Origin: an uncultured Clostridia bacterium
Lineage (GTDB): Bacteria; Acidobacteriota; Aminicenantia; UBA2199
Reading direction: 5' to 3'
Assembly: GCA_964502145.1 (NCBI GenBank)
Contig: CAZCVI010000009.1
Span: 73,438 to 137,437 of the forward strand
Length of the DNA stretch: 64,000 nucleotides
The notes below the pieces were generated by a model that was not told where the DNA came from, did not search any database, and saw nothing but the letters and a program-made list of their open reading frames with translations. Shown one piece after another: positions 3,503 through 54,265 of the stretch. The position numbers and the translations under genes were made by a program. The stretch's first letter is position 1. The number at the start of each line of letters is the position of its first letter.

Positions 3503-4327
3503 ATGTCTGAACAAAATCGTAAAATTTTAGAATTGCAACATATCACTGCGGGTTACCGTGACCAGATCGTGCTGGAAGACGTCAGTCTTATCGTAAAGGA
3601 AACGGATTTTATCGGGGTCATTGGGGCCAATGGATGTGGGAAGACGACGCTTTTAAAAGTAATATTGGGCTTGAACCAGCCAATGAAAGGGAGCATGTCT
3701 TTTGATTTTGAAGGGAATGGCAATAACAAGCCCAGCTATTATGTCGGTTATTTACCACAGGTGGCGGTGTTTGATCGGAAGTTCCCTATGACTGTGAATG
3801 ATGTTGTGCTTTCCGGTTTGAGTGCCAAGGTCGGGTTATTCAAGCGTTTTTCCAGGGAAGATAAGTCCCGCGCCCATCAGGTCATGGAACAGATGGGCAT
3901 TTTGCACATGAAAAAGAAAGTGATTGGCGAGTTATCCGGTGGGCAGATGCAGCGGGTATTTTTAGCGCGGGCGTTGATCAATTCGCCCCGGTTGTTGTTA
4001 TTGGATGAGCCCAACACCTTCGTGGATAAAAGTTTTGAACAGAGTTTTTTTGATGTTTTAAAAGAGTTGAACAAGGAGATTGCCATTATTTTAGTGTCCC
4101 ATGATCTTGGTATGATCTCTTCTTATGTCAAAACGATTGCCTGTGTGAACCGTTCGGTTTATCTTCATGAATCCAATGAAGTCACGCAGGAGTTATTGGA
4201 CAATTACAAGTGTCCGATTGATTTGATCACCCATGGCCAGTTGCCGCACCGGGTATTAAAAGCCCATGTGCATGGCAGTGCCGATGTGTGTCATTGTTTA
4301 CTACAGCGTTTGCAGGATGGAAAATGA
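3503..4327 (+). CDS. znuC: Zinc ABC transporter ATP-binding protein
   Basis: Walker A GANGCGKTTLLK, ABC signature LSGGQMQRV, Walker B LLLDEP. Confidence 0.85.
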   Translation: MSEQNRKILELQHITAGYRDQIVLEDVSLIVKETDFIGVIGANGCGKTTLLKVILGLNQPMKGSMSFDFEGNGNNKPSYYVGYLPQVAVFDRKFPMTVNDVVLSGLSAKVGLFKRFSREDKSRAHQVMEQMGILHMKKKVIGELSGGQMQRVFLARALINSPRLLLLDEPNTFVDKSFEQSFFDVLKELNKEIAIILVSHDLGMISSYVKTIACVNRSVYLHESNEVTQELLDNYKCPIDLITHGQLPHRVLKAHVHGSADVCHCLLQRLQDGK

Positions 4328-5160
4328 TTGAATTATTTAAGTACCAGTTTTTTATCAATGCGCTTATTGCCGCTTTATTAACCAGTATTACCTGTGGGTT
4401 TATTGGCACCTATATTGTTTCCCGGCGGATTGTATTTATTAGTGGCGGGATTAGTCACGCCTCGTTTGGTGGTGTGGGTATCGGGTATTATTTAGGTATT
4501 AATCCCATTCTTGGTGCCGCTGTATTTTCCGTGGTATCTGCTATTGGTATCGAAGTCTTTGCCCGTAAAGCCGAAGTGCGGCGGGATTCTTTGATTGGTA
4601 TCATGTGGTCATTTGGTATGGCTGTCGGGATGATTTTTATTTCTATTACTCCCGGTTATTCAGCCAATTTGATGACTTATTTGTTTGGTAATATACTTAC
4701 CGTGACCGCTTTTGATCTTGTTCTCATGCTCGCGTTGGCTGTGTTGGTCGTGTGTTTCTTTTTCCTTTTATTCAAGGAGATATTGTATGTTTCCTTTGAC
4801 GAGGATTATTCCCGCACCCAGGGGATTCCCGTTAGTTTTATTAATTTCGCGCTCATTAGTTTAGTCGCATTGACCATAGTCATCAATATCCGGGTCGTGG
4901 GCATCATTTTAGTAATGTCTTTATTAACCATCCCGCAGGCTACAGCCAGTTTGATTTCCAATAATTTCAGACATTTGATTTTCTTTTCCATTGGGTTTGG
5001 GTTATTGTCGTCTGTGTCTGGGTTGTTCTTGTCTTATCAATTTAACATTCCTTCCGGTGCGGCCATCATCTTTTTTTCCATCATCATCTTCTTCATCGTC
5101 AGAACAATCGTCGCCCTGCGCACCCGCATGAGCTTGCACAAACAACTGGATAAAGCGTAG
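4324..5160 (+). CDS. znuB: Metal (zinc) ABC transporter permease
   Basis: Polytopic membrane protein of ABC-3 type. ATG 4324 overlaps the znuC stop (ATGA), so I prefer it to the longer track ORF starting at 4288. Confidence 0.8.
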   Translation: MIELFKYQFFINALIAALLTSITCGFIGTYIVSRRIVFISGGISHASFGGVGIGYYLGINPILGAAVFSVVSAIGIEVFARKAEVRRDSLIGIMWSFGMAVGMIFISITPGYSANLMTYLFGNILTVTAFDLVLMLALAVLVVCFFFLLFKEILYVSFDEDYSRTQGIPVSFINFALISLVALTIVINIRVVGIILVMSLLTIPQATASLISNNFRHLIFFSIGFGLLSSVSGLFLSYQFNIPSGAAIIFFSIIIFFIVRTIVALRTRMSLHKQLDKA

Positions 5161-5178: not shown

Positions 5179-5210
5179 AGGTGAATTCACTGGACTATCT
5201 GGACAAACTC
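5179..5210. repeat. Partial copy of the TGGAC 9-nt-period repeat family (GGTGAATTCA + CTGGACTAT CTGGACAAA)
   Basis: Two CTGGACNNN units preceded by GGTGAATTCA, which matches the 'tail' of the full elements at 10952, 16789 and 36372. Confidence 0.4.
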
Positions 5211-5241: not shown

Positions 5242-5250
5242 TGGTATAAT
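5242..5250 (+). promoter_or_regulatory. Extended -10 promoter (TGGTATAAT) upstream of the AlbA_2/HATPase gene
   Basis: AAAAAACCATGGTATAATATAATGG lies about 20 nt before ATG 5271. Near-identical context recurs at 17945 and 47638. Confidence 0.45.
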
Positions 5251-5270: not shown

Positions 5271-6488
5271 ATGACGCAATTTATAAATTATACAGACGAC
5301 CAGCTAAAGTCGCTATTAGATGATCTCGAAGCAGACAATGCGGAGCGTAAAGAGAGTTGGAGCGACGATGCCAAGGACAAAGGCCGACAGGCGGTGTGTG
5401 CTTTTGCCAATGATCTTCCCAATTACCAAAAACCGGGAGTCCTTTTTGTAGGTGCCAAGGATGATGGCACTCCTTCAGGTTTAGAGATCAGCGATAAATT
5501 ATTACAGACTTTGGCGGATATCAAAACCGACGGACAGACTTTACCACCACCCACTATTATCGTTCAAAAACGGAAACTAAAAAACAAGGACATGGCCGTG
5601 GTGTTTGTGCTACCTGCTGATACTCCACCCGTTCGTTACAAGGGTAGAGTCTGGATTCGCACAGGTCCCAGGCGTGGCATTGCTACCGCACAGGATGAGC
5701 GTATTTTAAATGAAAAGAGACGATTTAAGGATAAATATTTCGATAGTGCGACAGTGCCAGGAACATCCCTCTATGACCTGAACCGCTTGCAATTCGAACA
5801 GGAATTTCTCCCCAATGCTTTTGCAGTGGATATTTTGGAAGCAAACCAACGCTCTTACGAGGAACGACTGGCATCACTTAAAATGATTGAATCTGTGGAT
5901 AATCCCATACCTACGATATTGGGTTTATTGGTAATCGGGAATAGACCACGTGATTTTCTTCCAAGTGCATATGTGCAATTTTTAAGAATTAATGGCGTGG
6001 GATTGGCTGACCCGATCGTCGATTCTGAAGAGATTGATGGAACAATAGGGCAAATCATCAGGAAGCTTGACGAAAAAATGACCTCACATAATCGTATTGC
6101 CGTGGACATCACTTCCGCCTCCCTGGAACGAAGAAATGCAGACTATCCACTCGTTGCCCTGCAACAACTGACACGAAACGCCTTAATGCATCGTACCTTT
6201 GAGGGCACAAATGCTCCAGTCAGGGTATATTGGTTTAATGACCGCATCGAAATATTCAATCCCGGTGGCCCATACGGAGAAGTAACGGCTGAAAATTTTG
6301 GGCACCCGGGAATAACCGACTATCGCAATCGAAACTTGGCCGACGCCATGAAAGTATCCGGTTTTGTGCAACGATTTGGCGTGGGTATTTCTATCGCTAA
6401 TAGAGAGCTGGAGAAGAACGGTAATCCCCCCTTCAGTTTCGATATTCAACCAACGGTTATTCTTATTACTGTAAGGAAGTCAAAATGA
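5271..6488 (+). CDS. AlbA_2 (Schlafen-like putative DNA-binding) + HATPase_c_4 domain protein, the family often annotated 'RecG-like putative transcriptional regulator'
   Basis: N-terminus VCAFANDLPN...GVLFVGAKDDGTPSGL...RYKGRVWIRTGP matches AlbA_2. C-terminus LTRNALMHRTF...IEIFNPGGPYG matches HATPase_c_4. Confidence 0.7.
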   Translation: MTQFINYTDDQLKSLLDDLEADNAERKESWSDDAKDKGRQAVCAFANDLPNYQKPGVLFVGAKDDGTPSGLEISDKLLQTLADIKTDGQTLPPPTIIVQKRKLKNKDMAVVFVLPADTPPVRYKGRVWIRTGPRRGIATAQDERILNEKRRFKDKYFDSATVPGTSLYDLNRLQFEQEFLPNAFAVDILEANQRSYEERLASLKMIESVDNPIPTILGLLVIGNRPRDFLPSAYVQFLRINGVGLADPIVDSEEIDGTIGQIIRKLDEKMTSHNRIAVDITSASLERRNADYPLVALQQLTRNALMHRTFEGTNAPVRVYWFNDRIEIFNPGGPYGEVTAENFGHPGITDYRNRNLADAMKVSGFVQRFGVGISIANRELEKNGNPPFSFDIQPTVILITVRKSK

Positions 6489-7483
6489 GTATCCCAGTTC
6501 TGACCTTTTTTAATAATAAAGGTGGTGTTGGAAAAACATCACTCATATACCATTTAACATACATGTTTGCTGAACTGGGTAAACGAGTATTAGCCGTGGA
6601 TCTAGATTCACAAGCCAACCTAACGGCTGCTTTTCTTGATGAAGAAGAGTTGGAAGCACTCTGGGAGGGAAATGAACCAGATTCCACTATATCTAAAATT
6701 ATCTCGCCACTGACCGGTGTCGGGGATATCCTAGAACCAAAACCCAGACATATTACGCATCATATTTATTTAATCCCAGGCGATGTAGCCTTGTCTGGAT
6801 TTGAAGAAACTTTAGCTGGCGAATGGCCGAATAGTATGGGGGATACCCTGCTATACCGTCCATTCAGAATTCTTACCGCTTTTTGGCAAGTGATGCAATT
6901 AGGCGCAAAAAAAATAAATGCAGATATTATATTGGTTGATATTGGTCCCTATCTCGGTGCGATTAACAGGTCAGTTTTGATTGCTACCGATTACGTTATT
7001 ATTCCACTGGGTACCGACCTTTTTTCGATTGAGGGGTTGAAAAATCTTGGTCCAATATTACGGAGTTGGCGTAACTTGTGGAAAAAGAGGTTGGACAACT
7101 GGGTTAAGCCTGAATTTATTCTACCACAGGGCAAAATGTCGCCTATTGGCTATGTATGCCAACAACATGGTGTTCGGTTAAGCCGCCCAGTTAAAGCCTA
7201 TGACAAATGGATAAACAAAATTCCCGATGTGTATCGTGAAAGCATTCTTGGAGAAAGTCCAAACGGGATGACACCTGCCGAAGACCCTCTCTGCTTAGCC
7301 ACTATCAAACATTTCCGTAGTCTTATCCCAATGGCCCAAGAACAACGGAAACCAGTGTTTAAATTGACTCAAGCTGATGGCGCTATTGGCAGCCATGCAC
7401 AATCTGTTAATAATGCTTATTCAGATTTCAAAATCCTGGCCAAAAAAATCGCGGACATCATTCATTTGGAAGGCTGCCAGTAA
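6485..7483 (+). CDS. ParA/Soj/MinD-family P-loop ATPase
   Basis: Deviant Walker A FNNKGGVGKTS, A' motif AVDLDSQANLT, Walker B ILVDIGP. The start overlaps the upstream stop (ATGA). Confidence 0.8.
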   Translation: MSIPVLTFFNNKGGVGKTSLIYHLTYMFAELGKRVLAVDLDSQANLTAAFLDEEELEALWEGNEPDSTISKIISPLTGVGDILEPKPRHITHHIYLIPGDVALSGFEETLAGEWPNSMGDTLLYRPFRILTAFWQVMQLGAKKINADIILVDIGPYLGAINRSVLIATDYVIIPLGTDLFSIEGLKNLGPILRSWRNLWKKRLDNWVKPEFILPQGKMSPIGYVCQQHGVRLSRPVKAYDKWINKIPDVYRESILGESPNGMTPAEDPLCLATIKHFRSLIPMAQEQRKPVFKLTQADGAIGSHAQSVNNAYSDFKILAKKIADIIHLEGCQ

Positions 7484-7647
7484 TGGTAATTGGCGGTGGA
7501 TTTAGGACTAAGAGAGTCCTTGATACAACGCTTATTTCCCGATTTTATTATTAATTTGATAATTACTGCCGCATTGCTTGCATTATTGCTGCAATTGATT
7601 TACAATTCTACTATGAATAGGATAACGTTTGCCGCTAGGAGTCTTCA

Positions 7648-9396
7648 ATGAGTTGGGCCAAAACATTTCAAATCAAAACTAATGGAACGGTCTTGGGCGT
7701 CATCGCCGAGTCAGACACTTGGTTCATCCGACAAGATAAAGAGTTACTCGCGTATAACCCCGATGAGAACCGCGTGGTCTGGCGTCTACAAATGCAAAGA
7801 GATAGTTTGCAAATGGATAAAACCCTGTTACGAACAGATGATCTCTTGATTGCCACCCTACACGCCGACCAAAAAACTGACCGGGCTTGGCTCTTTGCCG
7901 TGGACTCGGAATCCGGTCACATGGTTTGGTCCCAACGGGTAGCTGAACAATCCCTGCAAGGAAATGGCAATATCCTGGGCGAAAACCACTGGCATATCCT
8001 CTTTACCCAGATAAAAGACCACCACGCCGACCTGCTCCTGCTGGACAAATCAAACGGTGAAATTATTAAATCTCTCCCCCTGTCGCAAATTCCTAAAGGA
8101 AGCGCCTATACAGAACACTATTATTATTATCATTCCTTGCACGATGCCCTGCGCCGCGTTGATCTGGAAAGCGGCGAAGAGTCCATGATACTGGTTGAAA
8201 AAACCGCTGGACTCGCCCTGGTTTATGACCAACTCCTATGTATTTCTGGCAATGCCCTCTTCTCCTTGGACGCATCATCCAGCCAAATCATAGGGGAAAT
8301 TGATCTAAATGGAAAAAAAGCCAAAAAAATTATTCCTTTTGATAACAAAGATCACGTCCTGGTTTTTTTTGAAGGACCCCGTTCTTCTGTAGCCCTGTAT
8401 GATTTCAAAAGAAACCAGCCTATATGGGAGACAACCGTGCCCCTCCATTCAACTGCCTTTTGGACCGGACACGAAGTGATCGTAAAGGACCAGACATGCA
8501 AACGAAATTTTTCCATTGACGGCCAAAGCGGGGCAGTTAGCCCGATCACCACCCATTCTTTTGCCAAACTGGCCTATTTTAGCAATGGCAAGTGGTTTGA
8601 TTACGCCTTTCACAATCTCGCCGTGTATGAATGGACAGATTTGGAAGCGCCGGAAATAGATATGCCCGATCCCGATGAAAGCGAAACCGAAGTGATGAAT
8701 ATCGAAGATTTTATCCCCGGTTTCTTGGGCCATGAGGATGAACAAAAAGACCACTTGCTACGAGTACACAATCAAACCCTGGTAGATGGCAATTTTGAAT
8801 TGTTGTTCCAAGAGATCGCCAGATGTTTCCATATTCCCGTGGTTCATGACAAGGTGAAAAAATACCTGGTGGATACCTGCAACATAGAATACATTGACGG
8901 GCCATTGAGTCTTGAAGGCGCCAAAAAGAGTATTGGTCAATTCGGCAGTTACAAAAAGTTATTCGGTTTTGGACCCGAGGAAAAATTATATCCCGCCTTG
9001 CAAGTCGGTTCAGGTCGTAGCAATGCGTTTCTTCTGGCCCTGGAAAGCGGGAATATTATTTCTGGTCACCAGAGTGTCCTGTATGGCGAATATGCCAGTG
9101 AAGAGTGGGAACTCGCTGGAAAGGAATTGGTCAGTTTTAATCAACAGTTGGAAGAGAAGTACAGTTGTTTTGATATCCAGCAACTCATCGCCTTCCAAGC
9201 GTCGTTCGAAGACTATAAAGACCATTATGATATCCCCCTGGAAGAATTGTACCGCCAAGCTGGCTGTACTCTGACCCATTCCTACCCACAGCTCTTACGC
9301 AACCTCAATGCCGAGCCCATGGAATTCCTCACTGGCTACATGGATGAAGCAGAAACGGAAGCCATGATCAAGAGCTTCTTTCAACCCGAAGAGTAA
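7648..9396 (+). CDS. Hypothetical cytoplasmic protein with an N-terminal PQQ/BamB-like beta-propeller and an uncharacterised C-terminal domain
   Basis: 582-aa ORF with repeated motifs of the type NRVVWRLQM / SGHMVWSQ. No signal peptide. Confidence 0.5.
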   Translation: MSWAKTFQIKTNGTVLGVIAESDTWFIRQDKELLAYNPDENRVVWRLQMQRDSLQMDKTLLRTDDLLIATLHADQKTDRAWLFAVDSESGHMVWSQRVAEQSLQGNGNILGENHWHILFTQIKDHHADLLLLDKSNGEIIKSLPLSQIPKGSAYTEHYYYYHSLHDALRRVDLESGEESMILVEKTAGLALVYDQLLCISGNALFSLDASSSQIIGEIDLNGKKAKKIIPFDNKDHVLVFFEGPRSSVALYDFKRNQPIWETTVPLHSTAFWTGHEVIVKDQTCKRNFSIDGQSGAVSPITTHSFAKLAYFSNGKWFDYAFHNLAVYEWTDLEAPEIDMPDPDESETEVMNIEDFIPGFLGHEDEQKDHLLRVHNQTLVDGNFELLFQEIARCFHIPVVHDKVKKYLVDTCNIEYIDGPLSLEGAKKSIGQFGSYKKLFGFGPEEKLYPALQVGSGRSNAFLLALESGNIISGHQSVLYGEYASEEWELAGKELVSFNQQLEEKYSCFDIQQLIAFQASFEDYKDHYDIPLEELYRQAGCTLTHSYPQLLRNLNAEPMEFLTGYMDEAETEAMIKSFFQPEE

Positions 9397-9472
9397 AAGA
9401 TCACGTAAAGCTGACGTCCAGATTATAAATGTCCTACCCGCTTAACTTCCTGGCGGCTTAACTGCCTTTTTT

Positions 9473-10585
9473 TTAGGATTTATCGTTCAAGAAATCCTGG
9501 TTAGTGGGGTATTTGACTAAAAATTTCAGGAACAGTTCCATTCCTTCCTGTCCTGATTTAACCGCGGATAGCGCGCGGCGTAGTTTGGTGATTTGTTCGA
9601 ATTCCGCTTCTTTAAAAAGCACTTCTTCCCGTCGTGTACCCGAGGCATTAATATTAATAGCCGGGAATATCCGGGCTTCCGCCAGTTTGCGATCCAAAAC
9701 GATCTCGCTGTTGCCCGTGCCTTTAAACTCTTCGAAGATCAATTGGTCCATGCGTGACCCAGTATCTACCAATACCGTGGCAATAATTGTTACCGAACCC
9801 CCGTTTTCAATGTTGCGGGCCATACCGAAGAAGCGTCGTGGCACTTCCAGCGTTCCTGCTTGGATACCACCAGACATGATGCGTCCCCTGCCTTCCGGGG
9901 AACCTTTTAAATTAAAAGCGCGGGCCATCCGGGTCAGGCTGTCTACCAGCACTACCACGTCCCGGCCACATTCCAATTCTGCGATCACGTGGTTCATGAC
10001 AAATTGAGTCAGCGTGGTATGTTCGTTGATGTTCCGGTCATTCGAACTGGCAATTACTTCCGCGTCGACTTGGCGACGGAAATGCGTGACTTCTTCCGGT
10101 CGTTCATCGATTAAAAAAGCAATGATGCGAGTTTTAGGATCTCCGGCATGGATACCCATGGCGATTTGTTCCAGAATCATGGTTTTACCAGCGCGGGGTG
10201 GTGATACAATCAAACCGCGAGTGCCTTTAGCAATTGGGGCCAATAAATCTACCACCCGCATCGACGTGTTGCCCGCCGCAGCCAGATTAAAGCGTTGATC
10301 TGGCGTGATCGCCGTTAACTTTGTATAAGGAATACGTTTGGCAAATTGTTCCGGCGACAATCCGCACACCGTTTCCACCGAATGTAATTGCGCGTTTCTG
10401 CCGCTCCCCCGTACCTGTCCCACCACGACCGCCCCTTCTACCAGATTGTACTGTTTCACCATTTGAAAAGGTACCGTGATGCCTTCCGCTTCGCCCCCTG
10501 AATATTCTGCTGGGTCTACCAGCAAGGCACGGTTCTTGCCTTTCTGTTTTAATAATTTTAACACTCCTGTTCCGCTCTGCGGCAT
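9473..10585 (-). CDS. rho: Transcription termination factor Rho
   Basis: Walker A PPRAGKT, conserved ATVLVDTGSRMD and Q/R-loop regions. Strong ribosome-binding site GGAGGAAAATA before ATG 10585. Confidence 0.9.
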   Translation of the reverse strand: MPQSGTGVLKLLKQKGKNRALLVDPAEYSGGEAEGITVPFQMVKQYNLVEGAVVVGQVRGSGRNAQLHSVETVCGLSPEQFAKRIPYTKLTAITPDQRFNLAAAGNTSMRVVDLLAPIAKGTRGLIVSPPRAGKTMILEQIAMGIHAGDPKTRIIAFLIDERPEEVTHFRRQVDAEVIASSNDRNINEHTTLTQFVMNHVIAELECGRDVVVLVDSLTRMARAFNLKGSPEGRGRIMSGGIQAGTLEVPRRFFGMARNIENGGSVTIIATVLVDTGSRMDQLIFEEFKGTGNSEIVLDRKLAEARIFPAININASGTRREEVLFKEAEFEQITKLRRALSAVKSGQEGMELFLKFLVKYPTNQDFLNDKS

Positions 10586-17879: not shown

Positions 17880-17944
17880 ATATAAACTTCGACTGTCCCG
17901 TTATATTTATTGGTATATGCAAAAAAAAGCCACTATGGTATAAT

Positions 17945-17953
17945 AATATAGAA
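17945..17953 (+). promoter_or_regulatory. Extended -10 promoter (TGGTATAAT) upstream of the TIR operon
   Basis: AAAAAAAGCCACTATGGTATAATAATATAGAATGG, about 20 nt upstream of ATG 17974. Paralogous to the 5242 and 47638 promoters. Confidence 0.45.
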
Positions 17954-17973
17954 TGGAGTGATAGCGAGACAAA

Positions 17974-18582
17974 ATGAGCTACCAATACGATGTCTTTTTA
18001 AGTTACAACCGAAAGTTCCCCCACGGTCAGTGGGTAGATGAGATTTTTTATCCATTGTTTGTTCCCTACCTGGAAGATGCCCTGAATCAAAAAGTATTGA
18101 TATTCAAAGACACCGAAGAGATTAATACCGGTTCTGCTTGGCCCCATAGATTAAAGAATGCAGCCGTCCATTCGAAATGTATGGTATCCATTTTTTCGCC
18201 CGCTTATTTTCTTTCGGAATGGTGCATGAAAGAATTTGCCATCATGTTTTACCGGCAAAAGCAATTGGGATATTTAACACAAAAAAACCCTGATGGATTG
18301 ATTGTTCCCGTTAAAATCTTCGATGGTGAGCATTTCCCTGAGTATGCAAATTTTTTGCAGATGTTAGATTGTCGGGATTTATTTCTTGTCGGCGAGGGAA
18401 TGAAGCAGGCAAAATCTTATATGGATTTGCAAACACGCTTACAGAGATGGGTCTACAATGTAGCTAAAGTTATAAAAAACGCCCCGGAATGGGACAACCA
18501 ATGGCTGGAGAAGCATTGGTTGGAACCACTGGCGGCTAAAAAAAACTGGGCAGCAATACAAGAGGAGAAACCAATCCTATGA
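17974..18582 (+). CDS. Stand-alone TIR-domain protein (ThsB-like)
   Basis: YDVFLSYNR start. Conserved S-x-WC-x-x-E region SPAYFLSEWCMKEF, with the Glu in the position of the TIR NADase catalytic residue. Confidence 0.8.
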   Translation: MSYQYDVFLSYNRKFPHGQWVDEIFYPLFVPYLEDALNQKVLIFKDTEEINTGSAWPHRLKNAAVHSKCMVSIFSPAYFLSEWCMKEFAIMFYRQKQLGYLTQKNPDGLIVPVKIFDGEHFPEYANFLQMLDCRDLFLVGEGMKQAKSYMDLQTRLQRWVYNVAKVIKNAPEWDNQWLEKHWLEPLAAKKNWAAIQEEKPIL

Positions 18583-20048
18583 GTCAAGTCATAACTTTTT
18601 ATTCTTTTAAAGGCGGTGTTGGTCGTACCATGGCGTTGGCTAACGTGGCAGTTCTATTGTCGCAATGGGGATATAAAACGTTAGTTGTTGACTGGGACCT
18701 GGAAGCACCTGGGCTGGAAAATTTCTTCAAAGAATATATCAATTTAGAAAAGATTTCCAAAAGAAAAGGCCTGATCGAATTGTTAAATCCCAAAGATGCA
18801 ACTGAAAAAAAATTTACCTGGAAGGACTTGCGGATTCCAGTATTCATTCCTGAAGGTCAGGAGCCCATTCACCTGCTCACTGCTGGCGACCGCAGCAACG
18901 GCTATTACGACAGAGTGAGAAATTTTGATATTGATCTGTTCTATAAAAAGCAGGACGGCGGGCAAAAGATTGAACAACTGCGGGAGGAATGGAAAGCAGA
19001 ATACGATTTCGTTCTGGTGGATAGCCGTACCGGTATTACCGACAATGGAGGTATTTGTACTATTCAACTCCCAGACATCCTTGTCTTGCTTTTTACCGCC
19101 ACGGACATAGGACTAAATGGGATATTGGATGTCGCTCAGCGGGCAGTTAAAGCCCAACAGTCACTCGCTTTCGAACGCTTTAAATTGCTAGCCCTGCCCG
19201 TTCCCACCCGCCTTGAAACCGCTCTTGAATTTAAACTATCGCAAGAGTGGATGAATAAATTTTCAAAAGAATTGGAGCCCCTCTATTATGATTGGCTACC
19301 AATCAATGTGGACCGTCTGCAATTCGTTGAATTAACTAAGATTCCTTCTGTTCCATATTTTAATTTCGGAGAAAAACTTCCGGTCATTGAACAGGGCGTC
19401 AACGATCCGGCTGGCCTGGGATATGCATACGAGACTATCACCGCCCTTCTGGCAAACAACTTCCAATCCATCCAAGACCTGATGAATAACCGTGATGCAT
19501 TCATCCATATGGCTGCCAGTAACCGGGGTACAATAATCAAAAGGAAATCCAATCCTAAAGTAACCAATCAACCAGTTAAAATTTTTATTTCCTATTCCCA
19601 TAAAGAAAAAGCGATTAAAAGTATACTGGAATATTATCTGGAAATACTTAAAACAAAAGGATTGGCCACCTTTTGGTCAGATGAAAAACTTTTGCCGGGT
19701 ATGAAGTGGTCTGAAGAGATTGAAAAGAATATCTCTGACTCCCAGGTTTTCTTAATTTTATTAAGTAAAAACTATCTCTCCCCTACCACTTCAGCGGAAT
19801 TGCAGCAAATAGAAAATTTTGGAAAACAAAAGAATATCCTGATAATTCCAATTGTACTCGACGATTCCACTTGGTATCAGGACACCTTTTTAAAAGATCG
19901 TTTTTCAATATGGATGGATTACGCGACAATAAATACCCATGTAAACTGGGAGGAGGCTCTTTTTGAAGTTGTTCAACAGATTGAAAAATCAATTCTTTTA
20001 TATCAACAACAAATCAATGAAACAAAACCTATAGGAGAAGTGAAATGA
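18579..20048 (+). CDS. Fusion protein: N-terminal MinD/ParA-like (SIMIBI) NTPase with a deviant Walker A, C-terminal TIR domain
   Basis: N-terminus FYSFKGGVGRTMALAN (P-loop Lys replaced by Arg), A' VVDWDLEAPGL, Walker B LVDSRTG. C-terminus VKIFISYSHKEK...FLILLSKNYLSPTTSAELQQ, typical of the bacterial TIR_2 family. ATGA overlap with the upstream TIR gene. Confidence 0.75.
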   Translation: MSQVITFYSFKGGVGRTMALANVAVLLSQWGYKTLVVDWDLEAPGLENFFKEYINLEKISKRKGLIELLNPKDATEKKFTWKDLRIPVFIPEGQEPIHLLTAGDRSNGYYDRVRNFDIDLFYKKQDGGQKIEQLREEWKAEYDFVLVDSRTGITDNGGICTIQLPDILVLLFTATDIGLNGILDVAQRAVKAQQSLAFERFKLLALPVPTRLETALEFKLSQEWMNKFSKELEPLYYDWLPINVDRLQFVELTKIPSVPYFNFGEKLPVIEQGVNDPAGLGYAYETITALLANNFQSIQDLMNNRDAFIHMAASNRGTIIKRKSNPKVTNQPVKIFISYSHKEKAIKSILEYYLEILKTKGLATFWSDEKLLPGMKWSEEIEKNISDSQVFLILLSKNYLSPTTSAELQQIENFGKQKNILIIPIVLDDSTWYQDTFLKDRFSIWMDYATINTHVNWEEALFEVVQQIEKSILLYQQQINETKPIGEVK

Positions 20049-51368: not shown

Positions 51369-53801
51369 TTATTCATTATTCGAGCCAATAATAAATCGGA
51401 CTGGGCGTAGGTATGAAGGTGTTTCTTTTTTTACACCATCTTCTATATAATCAGAAAGTGAAAGTCTTGCTGTCCTGAGATCAATAAGCCAAAAAAGGTA
51501 ATTCCCTTTCATATCACCTGTCCACATTATGTATTGCGTTGGAGAAAACAATGGGTTGATATAAAGGCCTGATGCTGAATTGTGTGGTCTAACGAGAGAT
51601 GCCGCTTCTTCCAGATTTGGGTATCTCCAATCTTTATACCCCGCATAACCAGTTTGATTTAATTTGTTTAACCACGTCTCTACCTTTCTGTGGTATGTGT
51701 GAAGCAAATCGGTTTTTAAACGAGGAGATCCTGATTGATGCCACATCAATCCAGTTGAAAAGTCCGCGATTACAATATCTCCATTAATTGTTAATTGCTC
51801 AAGCTGACTGGCAGCATCTGCCTGGGAAATATCTTGAATCATGAGGATATTGAGCAACCCTTTTTCTTTCAGCATTTGCATTGCATCATCAATACTTAAT
51901 CCAATATTTAAGTAGTTTGTTCTAAGTGTTGGCGTGCAAAGGGACAATTTAAATTTTCCAGCTATAGGGTCAATGACAAAAACTTCACCCATTCTAAGAT
52001 CATACAAATCTTTAAAATATCCTTCCACTTTGAGAAGTTCTTTCCTACTGTACATTCCTTTGGCGATATCTGGACTTACTAATAGTGAATAATATCTTTT
52101 TTTCGCCTGAGAGTCCATTACGATAGTGGCATAATTTTTGGTGTCAGGGTTATAAGATAGAAGTTCAATAGTCAATCCTTCTACCGGGTATTTTATATTT
52201 CTTATTATTTCAATTTGTTCTTTGTAGGGTTTCATCAAGGATTCGCATTCATCTTCGTATTTTTTGGATAAATCCAAATCTTCTTTTTCATATTTTTCCA
52301 TAGTTTGCTGAATCTTTTCGTAATGCGCTTTTAACTTACCCTCATAATCAGATGTGGTTTCAAACTGATCTTTTGGAGGAATCGTCGTTCCTTTTAGCTT
52401 TTCTATGAGAGTATTATAGTACAATTTTGATTGGGCAAACGCTTTTTCCTTTTCAGTATAAATTGCTGATTTTATACCTTCAATTTTTTCCTCCAATTGC
52501 GCAATTTCTTTGCGTGCAGAATCAACAAACAGAACCTCCTGCTTAATATCCTTCAATTTTATCTGCTCATCGACGAATTTCTGCCGAAGTTTTTCCAATT
52601 CCTCTTCCCCAAATCTTTTTTTATTCTCCAGGTCGACTTTTTTTTGAGCTTCTTCAGCGGCCAATTTCTTTTCCTCTGCTTCAAAGAGTACTTTTCTCTC
52701 TTTTTCTTTTTGCAGTCTCTCCTGCTCCAATTGACTGGCTTTTAATTTTACCCGGAGATCTTCTTCTTTACGTTTATCCTCCCGTATTTCTTTTTCCGAT
52801 TTTAATTTAGCCGCCTCTTTTTTTTGTGCTTCAATTTCTGTGAGCTGTGATTGGAGTTTTGAGATTTCAGTTTGTACTTCTTCGTATCGGCGATCCACCC
52901 TTGGAATAAACACAAAATCTCCAAGGCCCCAAAATGTACCAAAAGCTGGCGTTTGGATATGCCCCATAGCATTTGAATCGGAAAATACTTTTTCCTTTAC
53001 AGTCACGGAAAGTTCCGAAGCCGTAATATAGTCCGAGGTGTCATTCAAAATTTGCAGGATTCGTCCCAAGAACACTGAGTGACCCAAAGGACCACCATCC
53101 AATACAGTTTCATCCTGTCCCCCGGCGGTCAGAACTTGACGGACGGTTTCTTTGGTTATTTTCTGCATGTATTTTAAATCACGTTTTGTTTCAGGGACGC
53201 TTCCCCGGGTCACCAATAATCCACTGTAGCAGGCATCAATCATAAAAAAAACATGTTTTGCAGGGATTGATTTTCCAACATCTTCCTTTAACTGGGTCAT
53301 GGAGATGTTTTTATATAATTCAGTTTTTTCGAAAGAACCATCATAGGGAACCAGAAACCCAAGTTCTCCATATTGTGAAGTGCCAGTATGCCCATGTCCT
53401 GCAAAAAAAATAAAAACAGCATCATCTGTGGTAGTTTGACTCATTTTCCCCAGAAGTGTCGACATAATTGCTTCACGCGAAGCTTCTCTGTCGTACAATG
53501 TTATAATTTCATCGAAAACAAACCGTTCTTTCAATATTTTTTCAATCCCTTTCGCGTCTTTAACGGCGTAACGAAGCTGTTGGTTCGGGGAAAGATTTTG
53601 GTATCGGTCAATGCCGATAATTACTCCATAAACCTTTTTGTATAGATTGACAATTTTCTCTTGTCCGGTCTGGTTGTCTTTTGCCAATATGCGAACCCCT
53701 CTCTGATCGGAAGGTAATTCCGACGTTTGTGCAAAAATGTCAAGGGGGCCATTCCATACTATGATCAAAAAAATAATAACAAAACTCGTAAGTGATTTCA
53801 T
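51369..53801 (-). CDS. Secreted caspase-like (peptidase C14) domain protein with a long KE-rich coiled coil and a C-terminal DUF1566 (Lcl C-terminal-like) domain
   Basis: Start set at MKSLTSFVIIFLIIV (signal peptide), which has ribosome-binding site AAGGAG. Caspase His/Cys dyad motifs FAGHGH and DACYSG. Coiled coil ~350-560. C-terminus STGLMWHQSG...GYKDWRYPNLEEAASL matches DUF1566. Confidence 0.8.
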   Translation of the reverse strand: MKSLTSFVIIFLIIVWNGPLDIFAQTSELPSDQRGVRILAKDNQTGQEKIVNLYKKVYGVIIGIDRYQNLSPNQQLRYAVKDAKGIEKILKERFVFDEIITLYDREASREAIMSTLLGKMSQTTTDDAVFIFFAGHGHTGTSQYGELGFLVPYDGSFEKTELYKNISMTQLKEDVGKSIPAKHVFFMIDACYSGLLVTRGSVPETKRDLKYMQKITKETVRQVLTAGGQDETVLDGGPLGHSVFLGRILQILNDTSDYITASELSVTVKEKVFSDSNAMGHIQTPAFGTFWGLGDFVFIPRVDRRYEEVQTEISKLQSQLTEIEAQKKEAAKLKSEKEIREDKRKEEDLRVKLKASQLEQERLQKEKERKVLFEAEEKKLAAEEAQKKVDLENKKRFGEEELEKLRQKFVDEQIKLKDIKQEVLFVDSARKEIAQLEEKIEGIKSAIYTEKEKAFAQSKLYYNTLIEKLKGTTIPPKDQFETTSDYEGKLKAHYEKIQQTMEKYEKEDLDLSKKYEDECESLMKPYKEQIEIIRNIKYPVEGLTIELLSYNPDTKNYATIVMDSQAKKRYYSLLVSPDIAKGMYSRKELLKVEGYFKDLYDLRMGEVFVIDPIAGKFKLSLCTPTLRTNYLNIGLSIDDAMQMLKEKGLLNILMIQDISQADAASQLEQLTINGDIVIADFSTGLMWHQSGSPRLKTDLLHTYHRKVETWLNKLNQTGYAGYKDWRYPNLEEAASLVRPHNSASGLYINPLFSPTQYIMWTGDMKGNYLFWLIDLRTARLSLSDYIEDGVKKETPSYLRPVRFIIGSNNE

Positions 53802-54265
53802 CCTTTTCTCCTTTTCCCGCCCGAAAAACATATCCGAACCAATGGGAATCATCTTTCTTTCTGTGTACGGATTGGTCAACGTTTTTTCTTCCGTCATGTG
53901 TTGCGTCCCTTCTTCTTTTTTTTCAATTGTTCGCCATAATTTCCTATTATACAAATATCGCGATTGATTTGCAATACCCACAAATGGATTTCAGGAAGAG
54001 ATCGTTTCTGAACCGTGATGCGTGGGATTATAGGATGACCGGGATGAAAGAATTGGAGTCTGCCAAATGGGATATTCCTGATTATTTTCGCTGTGGTTTG
54101 GAATGAATTTTCGACACACAGACCCTATCACCCTTAAAAAACCAGAATTTTTCAACTACCGTGATTGAATTTTTATGAGGCAAGACCTGGCCATTTCTTC
54201 CATGCACAAGCCACTTTTTTTCAAATCGTTGCGGACGCTATGAACGATTAGGAAGTCTTCACCAT

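What the first reader, a model, noticed from the sequence alone, without database searches (positions are those of the whole stretch)
5271..9396. Coupled AlbA_2/HATPase_c_4 (Schlafen-like) protein + ParA-like ATPase, followed by a cytoplasmic beta-propeller protein
The AlbA_2-HATPase_c_4 gene and a bona fide ParA/Soj-class ATPase overlap by ATGA (6485-6488). This indicates co-translation, yet no ParB/centromere-binding partner is present. AlbA_2/HATPase_c_4 proteins are recurrent in defence islands and abortive-infection contexts but remain functionally uncharacterised. Pairing one with a partition-type ATPase is unusual. A 582-aa PQQ-like beta-propeller protein with an unknown C-terminal domain follows after a 160-nt gap. 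The pair has the same extended -10 promoter context as the TIR operon and a TGGAC repeat remnant immediately upstream.
Basis: partly seen in the sequence, partly recalled or inferred. Interest (0 to 1): 0.6.

Follow-up and report, generated by a model that had tools for sequence, protein, structure and literature searches.

The report
Schlafen-type nuclease paired with ParA-like ATPase
Two overlapping genes, a Schlafen-type nuclease fused to an ATP-binding domain and an unusual ParA-like ATPase, form a fixed pair found across many bacterial phyla; it is probably an undescribed Schlafen-based defence module, and the beta-propeller gene next to it is unrelated.

Summary
Gene 5271-6488 encodes SLFN_AlbA_2 + HATPase_c_4. 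Gene 6485-7483 encodes a deviant-Walker-A ParA/MinD-type ATPase. They overlap by ATGA.

The pairing is not unique to this genome. About 48 of 51 genome loci found through the ATPase carry the nuclease gene directly upstream. In the reverse test, 72 of about 75 assessable metagenome loci found through the nuclease carry the ATPase directly downstream. A 4-nt NTGA overlap occurs in 44 of 51 pairs. One natural single-polypeptide fusion sits on 15 contigs. No third gene is conserved.

The beta-propeller gene is a near-orphan. A sister contig has it without the pair, so it is not part of the unit.

The first gene is a stand-alone "Schlatpase" (Schlafen nuclease + GHKL ATPase), the tRNA-cleaving effector module of SLFN-pAgo (2026 preprint). 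Its nuclease motifs are invariant. The GHKL catalytic Glu is Gln.

The ATPase matches no curated partition family, has no ParB, and is virtually absent from plasmids and viral contigs.

In three loci the pair lies next to or inside Hma defence operons. One variant adds a RES toxin domain. One same-subfamily Schlatpase has a wHTH instead of the ATPase.

Best reading: an effector-plus-regulator conflict module, function untested.

The parts
5242..5250 (+). Extended -10 promoter-like element TGGTATAAT, 21 nt upstream of the first start codon; likely promoter of the pair
   Evidence: Read directly; pattern search. The simple sigma-70 scan found no -35 partner. The same 9-mer precedes other, unrelated genes in the window.
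5271..6488 (+). Gene 1: stand-alone 'Schlatpase', 405 aa. It has a Schlafen/AlbA_2 nuclease domain, a middle region and a GHKL-type ATP-binding domain (HATPase_c_4). No HTH domain.
   Evidence: Pfam. 7,986 homologues, the best 120 at 63-73% identity. Fold matches to 3LMM, SLFN11/13/14 and the SAMD9 tRNase. AF2 pLDDT 70; residues 330-405 are poorly modelled.
5328..5351 (+). Nuclease motif E20-x4-E25-x-K27, matching the E(x)4(D/E)xK motif of Schlafen nucleases
   Evidence: E20, E25 and K27 are invariant in 34 sequences and present across loci. Motif defined in preprint 10.64898/2026.05.29.728809.
5397..5411 (+). Schlafen box C43-A-F-A-N47 (the SAFAN motif, with Cys for Ser)
   Evidence: C43, F45 and N47 invariant; A44 and A46 in at least 90% of 34 sequences. 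Seen in nearly all loci. Motif.
6165..6179 (+). GHKL N-box Q299-L-T-R-N303. The Mg-binding Asn is kept. The catalytic Glu position is Gln.
   Evidence: Q299 and N303 invariant. 3LMM has Glu at the aligned position. RzAgo E314/N318 are the equivalent pair. Gln in most loci; Glu in L022, L032 (both copies), L038, L050 and the fusion P0260.
6485..6488 (+). ATGA: the start codon of gene 2 overlaps the stop codon of gene 1 (translational coupling)
   Evidence: Sequence. The same 4-nt NTGA overlap occurs in 44 of 51 independent pairs.
6485..7483 (+). Gene 2: ParA/MinD-superfamily ATPase, 332 aa, of a distinct subfamily with extra insertions
   Evidence: Pfam AAA_31/CbiA. All NCBIfam partition models below cut-off. 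Best solved relative 3PG5/DIP2308. AF2 pLDDT 85, pTM 0.88. 468 clusters at 50% identity with E<=1e-30.
6518..6538 (+). Deviant Walker A K12-G-G-V-G-K17-T18, with the signature lysine used for ATP-sandwich dimers. The other ATPase motifs lie at D39/D41 (6599-6607) and D152 (6938-6940).
   Evidence: All are invariant in 35 sequences.
7484..7537 (.). Right-hand edge of the two-gene cassette. It contains a short inverted repeat AGGACT-aagag-AGTCCT at 7504-7520.
   Evidence: DNA similarity to sister contig L066, which has the propeller gene but not the pair, begins at window position 7538. Sequence read.

Best explanation
The unit is a two-gene operon (5271-7483): a stand-alone Schlatpase and a dedicated ParA-like ATPase. 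It most likely acts as a conflict module of the abortive-infection or phage-defence type.

Shown here:
- The two genes are inherited, transferred and translated together. They are sometimes fused into one protein.
- The Schlafen nuclease motifs are intact.
- The GHKL domain keeps its Mg-binding Asn but has Gln in place of the catalytic Glu.
- The ParA-like protein keeps every ATPase motif.

Inferred:
- The Schlatpase is the effector. By analogy with SLFN-pAgo and Cash, it is an oligomerisation-gated RNase, probably cutting tRNA. Its GHKL domain would bind ATP as an assembly switch with little or no hydrolysis.
- The ParA-like ATPase fills the sensor or regulator slot. In relatives that slot holds a pAgo core or a C-terminal winged-HTH domain.
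- As an ATP-dependent dimer that probably binds DNA, it would hold the nuclease inactive or license it, in response to a change in DNA or nucleotide state during infection.
- Licensing would allow the active Schlafen dimer or tetramer to form and arrest translation.
For: Linkage:
- About 48 of 51 genome loci found through the ATPase have the Schlatpase directly upstream.
- 58 full and 14 contig-truncated ParA-like genes lie directly downstream of the Schlatpase in 80 metagenome loci.
- NTGA overlap in 44 of 51 pairs.
- Pairwise identities of the two proteins correlate, r=0.78 over 946 pairs.
- Divergent members (36-41% identity) keep the arrangement.
- Single-ORF fusion P0260 sits on 15 contigs.
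- No third conserved gene.

Effector:
- E-x4-E-x-K and CAFAN conserved.
- Fold matches to SLFN11/13/14 and the SAMD9 tRNase.
- PADLOC pAgo and Aga models match the protein.
- The same two Pfam domains in RzAgo give ATP-driven tetramerisation, tRNA cleavage and phage protection.
- Cash is a second prokaryotic Schlafen tRNase.

Conflict context:
- L027 reads HmaA-[pair]-HmaB-HmaC.
- L036 reads HmaA-[pair]-HEC-01A-like-x-HmaB.
- L026 reads [pair]-HmaB.
- Seven of nine Hma-embedded candidates tested elsewhere defended against phage.
- P0328 is the ParA-like protein fused to a RES toxin domain, still preceded by a Schlatpase.
- Flanks are variable and the distribution across phyla is patchy.
- In L060 the pair lies between asd and dapA.

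Sensor slot:
- L105 holds a same-subfamily Schlatpase (61% identity) with a C-terminal wHTH and no ATPase, next to a DUF1156 methylase.
- MinD/ParA and wHTH domains are also alternative C-terminal partners of a kinase domain in other conflict systems (PMC7159879).
- The same window has a KGGVGR ParA/MinD-like ATPase fused to TIR.
Against: - No experiment exists for this pair.
- No full-length hit to any PADLOC v2 model.
- The two nearest neighbours on each side are mostly housekeeping genes. Only a minority are defence-like.
- In this window the flanks are a zinc-type ABC transporter and an orphan gene.
- No relatives on 2.9 million viral contigs.
- Only three distant relatives on 72,556 plasmids.
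- Both proteins are unusually conserved for immune genes, 55-75% identity across phyla.
- DNA binding by the ATPase, physical contact between the two proteins and the RNA substrate were not tested.
- The GHKL region of the model is low-confidence.
- RzAgo needs ATP hydrolysis for defence. The natural Glu-to-Gln change therefore means the mechanism cannot be a simple copy of RzAgo.
Confidence: 0.5

Rival explanations
1. A toxin-antitoxin-like or stress-response growth-arrest module that is not aimed at phage. The Schlatpase would be a toxic RNase. The co-translated ParA-like ATPase would be its neutraliser or ATP/nucleoid-state sensor, for example under starvation or DNA damage.
For: - Compact two-gene operon with translational coupling.
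- Mostly housekeeping neighbours; can sit inside biosynthetic operons.
- A RES toxin-domain variant exists.
- High conservation fits a host-directed substrate.
Against: - No asymmetry in gene loss. ATPase-only loci (L025, L039) and nuclease-only loci (L105, L138) are equally rare.
- Essentially absent from plasmids, where addiction modules are common.
- Placement next to or inside Hma defence operons points to defence.
Confidence: 0.2
2. A housekeeping nucleic-acid-metabolism or regulatory pair. The Schlatpase would be a DNA/RNA-binding regulator, as its database names 'transcriptional regulator' and 'RecG-like' suggest. The ParA-like ATPase would position it on the nucleoid, with no role in conflict.
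For: - Unusually strong sequence conservation across phyla.
- Chromosomal; mostly housekeeping neighbourhoods.
- ParA-type ATPases are known positioning machines (established knowledge).
Against: - Patchy distribution, and a different context even in the closest relative (81% and 75% identity, L067).
- Absent from the sister contig.
- The nuclease catalytic motif is invariant.
- This Schlatpase has no HTH.
- RES fusion and Hma placement.
Confidence: 0.15
3. A DNA partition system in which the Schlatpase replaces ParB as the centromere-binding adaptor of a ParA ATPase.
For: - ParA/MinD fold with an intact deviant Walker A.
- The operon has two genes, like parAB.
Against: - Gene order is the reverse of parAB.
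- All NCBIfam partition models score far below cut-off.
- Three distant hits on 72,556 plasmids and none on viral contigs.
- Found at scattered chromosomal sites rather than replication origins.
- The partner has no HTH or ParB domain and keeps a nuclease site.
Confidence: 0.04

Closest known systems
SLFN-pAgo (RzAgo) and the 'Schlatpase' supradomain (bioRxiv 10.64898/2026.05.29.728809)
   Same: - Same two Pfam domains in the same order (PF04326 + PF13749).
- Same E(x)4(D/E)xK and SAFAN-type motifs.
- PADLOC pAgo and Aga models align to the window protein.
- The natural fusion P0260 is built SLFN-GHKL-[C-terminal module], like SLFN-GHKL-pAgo.
   Different: - No Argonaute core. The partner is a separate ParA-like P-loop ATPase.
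- The GHKL catalytic Glu (E314 in RzAgo, needed for defence) is Gln here.
- No guide RNA is implied.
- The preprint reports no conserved partner for SLFN-pAgos and does not characterise stand-alone Schlatpases.
Cash (CRISPR-associated Schlafen; PMC13462974) and the other defence-linked prokaryotic Schlafen clusters described there
   Same: - A Schlafen nuclease domain acts as an oligomerisation-gated tRNase effector.
- That paper notes many Schlafen homologues with ATPase and DNA-binding domains near BREX, RM and CRISPR systems.
   Different: - Cash is activated by cA4 through a Csx15 sensor domain and has no GHKL domain.
- No ParA-like partner is described.
- The window pair is not next to CRISPR, BREX or RM genes.
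ParA/Soj/MinD positioning ATPases (Soj, pNOB8 ParA, McdA, MinD)
   Same: - SIMIBI P-loop fold with deviant Walker A, A' and B motifs.
- An ATP-sandwich dimer is expected.
   Different: - No ParB, MinE or McdB-type partner.
- Below every curated partition threshold.
- About 70-80 extra residues.
- Chromosomal and scattered.
- The nearest solved structure is the uncharacterised DIP2308 (3PG5).
Hma-embedded candidate systems (HEC-01 to -09; bioRxiv 10.1101/2024.01.29.577857)
   Same: - In L027 and L036 the pair lies between HmaA and HmaB. In L026 it directly precedes HmaB.
- It has an ATPase-plus-nuclease two-gene layout like HEC-01/02/03.
   Different: - Those ATPases are ABC-type and pair with TOPRIM, NERD or PIN nucleases.
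- Here a ParA-type ATPase pairs with a Schlafen-GHKL nuclease.
- The pair is not in PADLOC v2.
- Most copies, including this one, are not embedded in Hma.
C. diphtheriae DIP2308 (PDB 3PG5) and DIP2311 (PDB 3LMM)
   Same: They are the best solved relatives of the ATPase and of the Schlatpase respectively. Their locus tags are three apart in one genome.
   Different: - Only 18-24% identity in the fold alignments.
- DIP2311 is 583 aa and keeps the GHKL Glu.
- Both are uncharacterised structural-genomics targets.
- Their genomic arrangement was not checked here.

Membership tests
Schlatpase (Schlafen/AlbA_2 + GHKL supradomain) | PF04326 and PF13749 in one polypeptide, in that order, both above Pfam thresholds | tested here: met
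   53.5 bits against 25.3 and 53.5 bits against 26
Schlatpase (Schlafen/AlbA_2 + GHKL supradomain) | Schlafen nuclease motif E(x)4(D/E)xK and SAFAN box | tested here: met
   E20..E25.K27 invariant; C43AFAN47 conserved, with C43, F45 and N47 invariant and both Ala in at least 90% (Cys for Ser)
Schlatpase (Schlafen/AlbA_2 + GHKL supradomain) | GHKL N-box with catalytic Glu and Mg-binding Asn (E314/N318 in RzAgo) | tested here: not met
   N303 is present, but the Glu position is the invariant Q299. 3LMM and deep-branching pairs have Glu. ATP binding is plausible; hydrolysis is doubtful.
Schlatpase (Schlafen/AlbA_2 + GHKL supradomain) | ATP-driven oligomerisation and tRNA cleavage | not testable with these tools
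   Needs biochemistry. The monomer model is low-confidence in the GHKL part.
ParA/Soj partition ATPase | Deviant Walker A KGGxGK[ST] with Walker A' and B aspartates | tested here: met
   K12-T18, D39/D41 and D152 invariant
ParA/Soj partition ATPase | Reaches a curated partition-family threshold | tested here: not met
   Best NCBIfam scores are 55 bits (cut-off 348) and 47.9 bits (cut-off 180)
ParA/Soj partition ATPase | Adjacent ParB or other centromere-binding partner; plasmid or origin-proximal location | tested here: not met
   No ParB in the window or among the commonest neighbour families. Three distant hits on 72,556 plasmids.
Known anti-phage systems (PADLOC-DB v2.0.0) | Full-length match of both proteins to models of one system | tested here: not met
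   Only partial matches: Aga and pAgo models for gene 1; the Walker A region of PDC-M28B for gene 2
Defence system by 'guilt by embedding' (Hma-embedded candidate) | Nested between core genes of a multi-gene defence system | tested here: inconclusive
   Nested in L027 and L036, and adjacent to HmaB in L026, out of about 48 loci. Not so in this window. No enrichment statistic was computed.
Type II-like toxin-antitoxin module | Toxin neutralised by the co-expressed partner; the partner is lost less often than the toxin | tested here: inconclusive
   ATPase-only and nuclease-only loci are both about 3-4%. Toxicity is not testable here.

The most novel reading that the evidence does not exclude
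A widespread, previously unnamed bacterial immune system in which a ParA-type ATPase, a protein class known for positioning cargo on the nucleoid, acts as the infection sensor or licensing switch for a Schlafen tRNase. The nuclease's own GHKL domain would have become a hydrolysis-dead ATP latch. ParA-like ATPases would then be a general sensor chassis for immune effectors (Schlafen, RES, TIR).
Probability: 0.3. Interest if true: 0.8.

Novelty: new variant of a known kind. Interest (0 to 1): 0.62.

Why it matters
Schlafen nucleases are antiviral effectors in mammals. In 2026 they were shown to be effectors in bacteria too (SLFN-pAgo, Cash). Most of the roughly 60,000 bacterial Schlafen-GHKL proteins are small stand-alone proteins with no known trigger.

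This locus identifies a large, sharply defined subfamily: over 7,000 clusters at 90% identity, and 468 ATPase clusters at 50% identity. Its partner is obligate, co-translated and sometimes fused, and it is a ParA-like ATPase.

That gives a concrete, testable answer to how a stand-alone Schlatpase is controlled. It would also extend the roles of ParA-type ATPases beyond positioning into control of an immune or toxic nuclease.

The natural Glu-to-Gln change in the GHKL site is a ready-made experiment on ATP binding versus hydrolysis.

If the pair turns out not to defend against phage, its extreme conservation across phyla still needs an explanation.

Tried and rejected
- **Three-gene cassette.** Rejected. 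The propeller protein has one homologue, no co-occurrence with the pair, and a sister contig carries it without the pair.
- **Plasmid or phage partition role.** Rejected on distribution.
- **Third conserved gene.** All-against-all clustering of 570 neighbour ORFs found none.
- **Toxin-antitoxin-style asymmetric decay.** A first look suggested the Schlatpase decays while the ATPase is kept (L019, L037, L043, L052 split or truncated; L025, L039 absent). Those loci had been found through the ATPase, so the sample was biased. The reciprocal scan removed the asymmetry.
- **Fusion P0344.** Discounted, because its junction is Arg-rich out-of-frame-looking sequence. P0260 was kept.
- **RNA features.** Rfam and tRNA scans of the window found nothing.
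- **TGGAC repeat and extended -10 as marks of the pair.** Both occur elsewhere in the window, before unrelated genes.
- **Literature.** Searches for the pairing found no description. Terms tried: AlbA_2/ParA, HATPase_c_4, Schlafen + ParA-like, Schlatpase, Pfam accessions and KGGVGR.
- **Organism.** Its identity could not be established.

Full report
**What is in the window**

Three same-strand ORFs lie at the stated coordinates: 5271-6488 (405 aa), 6485-7483 (332 aa) and 7648-9396 (582 aa).
- The first hits Pfam SLFN_AlbA_2 and HATPase_c_4, both well above threshold.
- The second hits AAA_31 and CbiA.
- The third has only a sub-threshold PQQ_2 hit.
- The ATGA overlap at 6485-6488 is real.
- Upstream is a znuABC-like ABC transporter. 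Downstream, on the other strand, is a Rho paralogue.
- A TGGTATAAT element lies 21 nt before the first ATG.

**The pair is a conserved unit**

The ATPase has more than 7,000 homologues, the best 120 at 65-75% identity. Those that carry names come from Desulfobacterota, Nitrospirota, Elusimicrobiota, Verrucomicrobiota, Planctomycetota, Firmicutes (Heliorestis) and Proteobacteria. The Schlafen-type protein shows the same pattern.

Evidence that the two genes travel together:
- A scan of species-representative genomes with the ATPase returned 51 loci. In about 48 the Schlafen-type gene is directly upstream on the same strand.
- The reciprocal scan of metagenome contigs used the Schlafen-type profile and returned 80 loci. 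58 had a full ATPase gene directly downstream and 14 had one cut by the contig end or nearly so. Five had no room to judge. Only L105, L138 and perhaps L097 lacked it.
- The 4-nt NTGA overlap is present in 44 of 51 independent pairs.
- Pairwise identities of the two proteins correlate (r=0.78, 946 pairs).
- Members only 36-41% identical keep the same layout.
- One cluster, P0260 (731 aa), is a clean single-ORF fusion SLFN-GHKL-ParA found on 15 contigs. A second apparent fusion, P0344, looks like a frameshift artefact.
- Clustering of 570 neighbour ORFs found no third conserved gene.

**The beta-propeller gene is not part of the unit**

- It has a single homologue (68% identity) among 5.8 billion protein clusters.
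- It never accompanies the pair elsewhere.
- Contig L066 carries the homologue. Its similarity to the window starts at position 7538, inside the intergenic region. What lies upstream there shows no similarity to the window.
- The right edge of the cassette is therefore 7484-7537.

**Gene 1 is a stand-alone "Schlatpase"**

A May 2026 preprint (10.64898/2026.05.29.728809) gave this name to the SLFN_AlbA_2 + PF13749 GHKL combination and counted 60,692 such prokaryotic proteins. In the Argonaute fusion RzAgo it reported:
- Tetramerisation rebuilds a mammalian-like Schlafen nuclease that cuts tRNA.
- The nuclease (D32) and ATP hydrolysis (E314) are both needed for phage protection.
- Most Schlatpases are small stand-alone proteins, which it did not characterise. 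For SLFN-pAgos it found no conserved genetic linkage to specific partners.

The window protein compares as follows:
- It has the nuclease motif as E20-x4-E25-x-K27 and the Schlafen box as C43AFAN47. The key residues are invariant in 34 sequences and the motifs are present across loci.
- Its fold matches 3LMM, then SLFN11/13/14 and the SAMD9 tRNase.
- In the GHKL N-box the Mg-binding Asn (N303) is kept, but the catalytic Glu position is an invariant Gln (Q299). 3LMM has Glu at the aligned position.
- Deep-branching pairs (L022, both copies in L032, L038, L050) and the fusion P0260 keep Glu.
- From established GHKL enzymology, Glu-to-Gln at this site normally keeps ATP binding and removes hydrolysis. 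I did not test this.

**Gene 2 is a ParA/MinD-fold ATPase, but not a partition ParA**

- Walker A (K12-T18), A' (D39, D41) and B (D152) are invariant.
- The model is confident (pLDDT 85).
- Every NCBIfam partition model scores far below cut-off.
- The nearest solved structure is the uncharacterised DIP2308 (3PG5); Soj and ParA structures rank lower.
- No ParB-like gene is adjacent here, and none shows among the commonest neighbour families in other loci.
- Relatives are nearly absent from 72,556 plasmids: three hits at 34-36% identity.
- They are absent from 2.9 million viral contigs.
- They are very distant in phage records, at 25-27% identity.

**Evidence on function**

For a conflict or defence role:
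- In L027 the order is HmaA-[pair]-HmaB-HmaC, with adjoining gene ends.
- In L036 it is HmaA-[pair]-HEC-01A-like ATPase-x-HmaB.
- In L026 the pair directly precedes HmaB.
- Genes embedded in Hma systems have a good record as defence systems: 7 of 9 tested (10.1101/2024.01.29.577857).
- P0328 is the ParA-like protein, with a degenerate Walker A, fused to a RES toxin domain. A Schlatpase still sits upstream with the 4-nt overlap.
- Flanks vary even for the closest relative. In L060 the pair lies between asd and dapA, with dapB further upstream.

Against:
- The two nearest neighbours on each side are mostly housekeeping genes, with only a few defence-like hits.
- No PADLOC v2 model covers either protein.
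- Conservation is unusually high for immune genes.

**What the ATPase may do**

- L105 holds a Schlatpase of the same subfamily (61% identity). It has no ATPase partner and carries a C-terminal winged-HTH instead. It sits next to a DUF1156 methylase.
- In P0260 the ATPase is fused at the C-terminus, the position of the pAgo core in SLFN-pAgo.
- Kaur et al. 2020 (PMC7159879) describe MinD/ParA-like domains in other conflict systems. [quoted passage not shown]
- I infer that the ParA-like protein supplies ATP-dependent DNA binding or state sensing and controls assembly of the nuclease. This step is inference only.

**Comparison and verdict**

This is a new variant of a known kind. The effector is a known Schlafen-GHKL module. 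It has a previously undescribed, obligate ParA-like partner and a hydrolysis-dead-looking GHKL site.

The literature library held no description of the pairing. That library is incomplete, so prior description elsewhere cannot be excluded.

Its three-gene framing and its "bona fide ParA" label are not.

Noticed in passing
window 17936-20048 (+): The 'TIR operon': a 202-aa TIR protein (17974-18582) overlaps by 4 nt a 489-aa protein (18579-20048). The second protein has an N-terminal ParA/MinD-type ATPase with Walker A FKGGVGRT and a C-terminal TIR domain. TGGTATAAT lies just upstream at 17936. This is a second 'ParA-like ATPase + immune effector' unit in the same window. It is only 35% identical, over 49 aa, to the 6485 gene.
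   Followed up: partly
window 7648-9396 (+): 582-aa acidic protein (pI 4.9) with a sub-threshold PQQ_2 hit at the N-terminus and an unassigned C-terminal half. It has one homologue (68% identity) among 5.8 billion clusters. It has a conserved upstream region of about 110 nt of its own and a terminator-like hairpin at 9452-9466.
   Followed up: partly
window 9473-10585 (-): 370-aa Rho-like protein, convergent with the propeller gene. It passes one NCBIfam Rho model (399 bits, cut-off 315). It fails TIGR00767 and the 'short form Rho2' model, so it may be a Rho paralogue.
   Followed up: no
window 51369-53981 (-): 870-aa protein with a caspase-like Peptidase_C14 domain and an Lcl_C domain: another conflict-type architecture in the window.
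   Followed up: no
window, whole: TGNTATAAT occurs 8 times (3.0 expected). TGGTATAAT lies directly upstream of four genes: 5271, 17974, 47649 and, on the minus strand, 55759. CTGGACWA occurs 10 times (3.0 expected), including a tandem pair at 5190-5206. These look like genome-wide promoter or repeat features.
   Followed up: partly
PDB 3PG5 (DIP2308) and 3LMM (DIP2311): The best solved relatives of the ATPase and of the Schlatpase are both uncharacterised structural-genomics proteins of Corynebacterium diphtheriae. Their locus tags are three apart, which hints at a distant version of the same linkage. The genome itself could not be read here.
   Followed up: no
L055 (Salmonella phage ST160, NC_014900.1) 3509-5062: A distant full-length relative of the ATPase (25.6% identity) sits directly downstream of the c2 repressor, together with a DUF3024 protein. 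In temperate phages this position often holds genes expressed in the lysogen.
   Followed up: partly
L056 3814-6638 (also L057-L059): Variant system: a Schlatpase (396 aa) overlaps by 4 nt a 545-aa protein made of the ParA-like domain and a C-terminal RES toxin domain. Both Walker A lysines are lost (HGAVGTT).
   Followed up: partly
L105 3306-7695: A same-subfamily Schlatpase (61% identity) of 570 aa has a C-terminal wHTH (HTH_24) and no ParA-like partner. A DUF1156-type methylase follows it.
   Followed up: partly
L060 892-5907: The pair lies inside a lysine-biosynthesis cluster, in the order dapB-asd-[Schlatpase-ParA]-dapA. The ATPase gene ends at the base where dapA starts.
   Followed up: no
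L032 5727-7999 and 9907-12080: One Bryobacterales genome carries two divergent copies of the pair within 5 kb, on opposite strands. The second copy is 41% and 48% identical to the window proteins. Both copies keep Glu in the GHKL N-box.
   Followed up: no
L054 (Vibrio campbellii plasmid NZ_OX411214.1) 4989-5996: A 36%-identical ParA-like gene stands without a Schlatpase. It follows a resolvase fragment and lies next to 'mobile mystery protein A/B' and a type I restriction-modification system.
   Followed up: no
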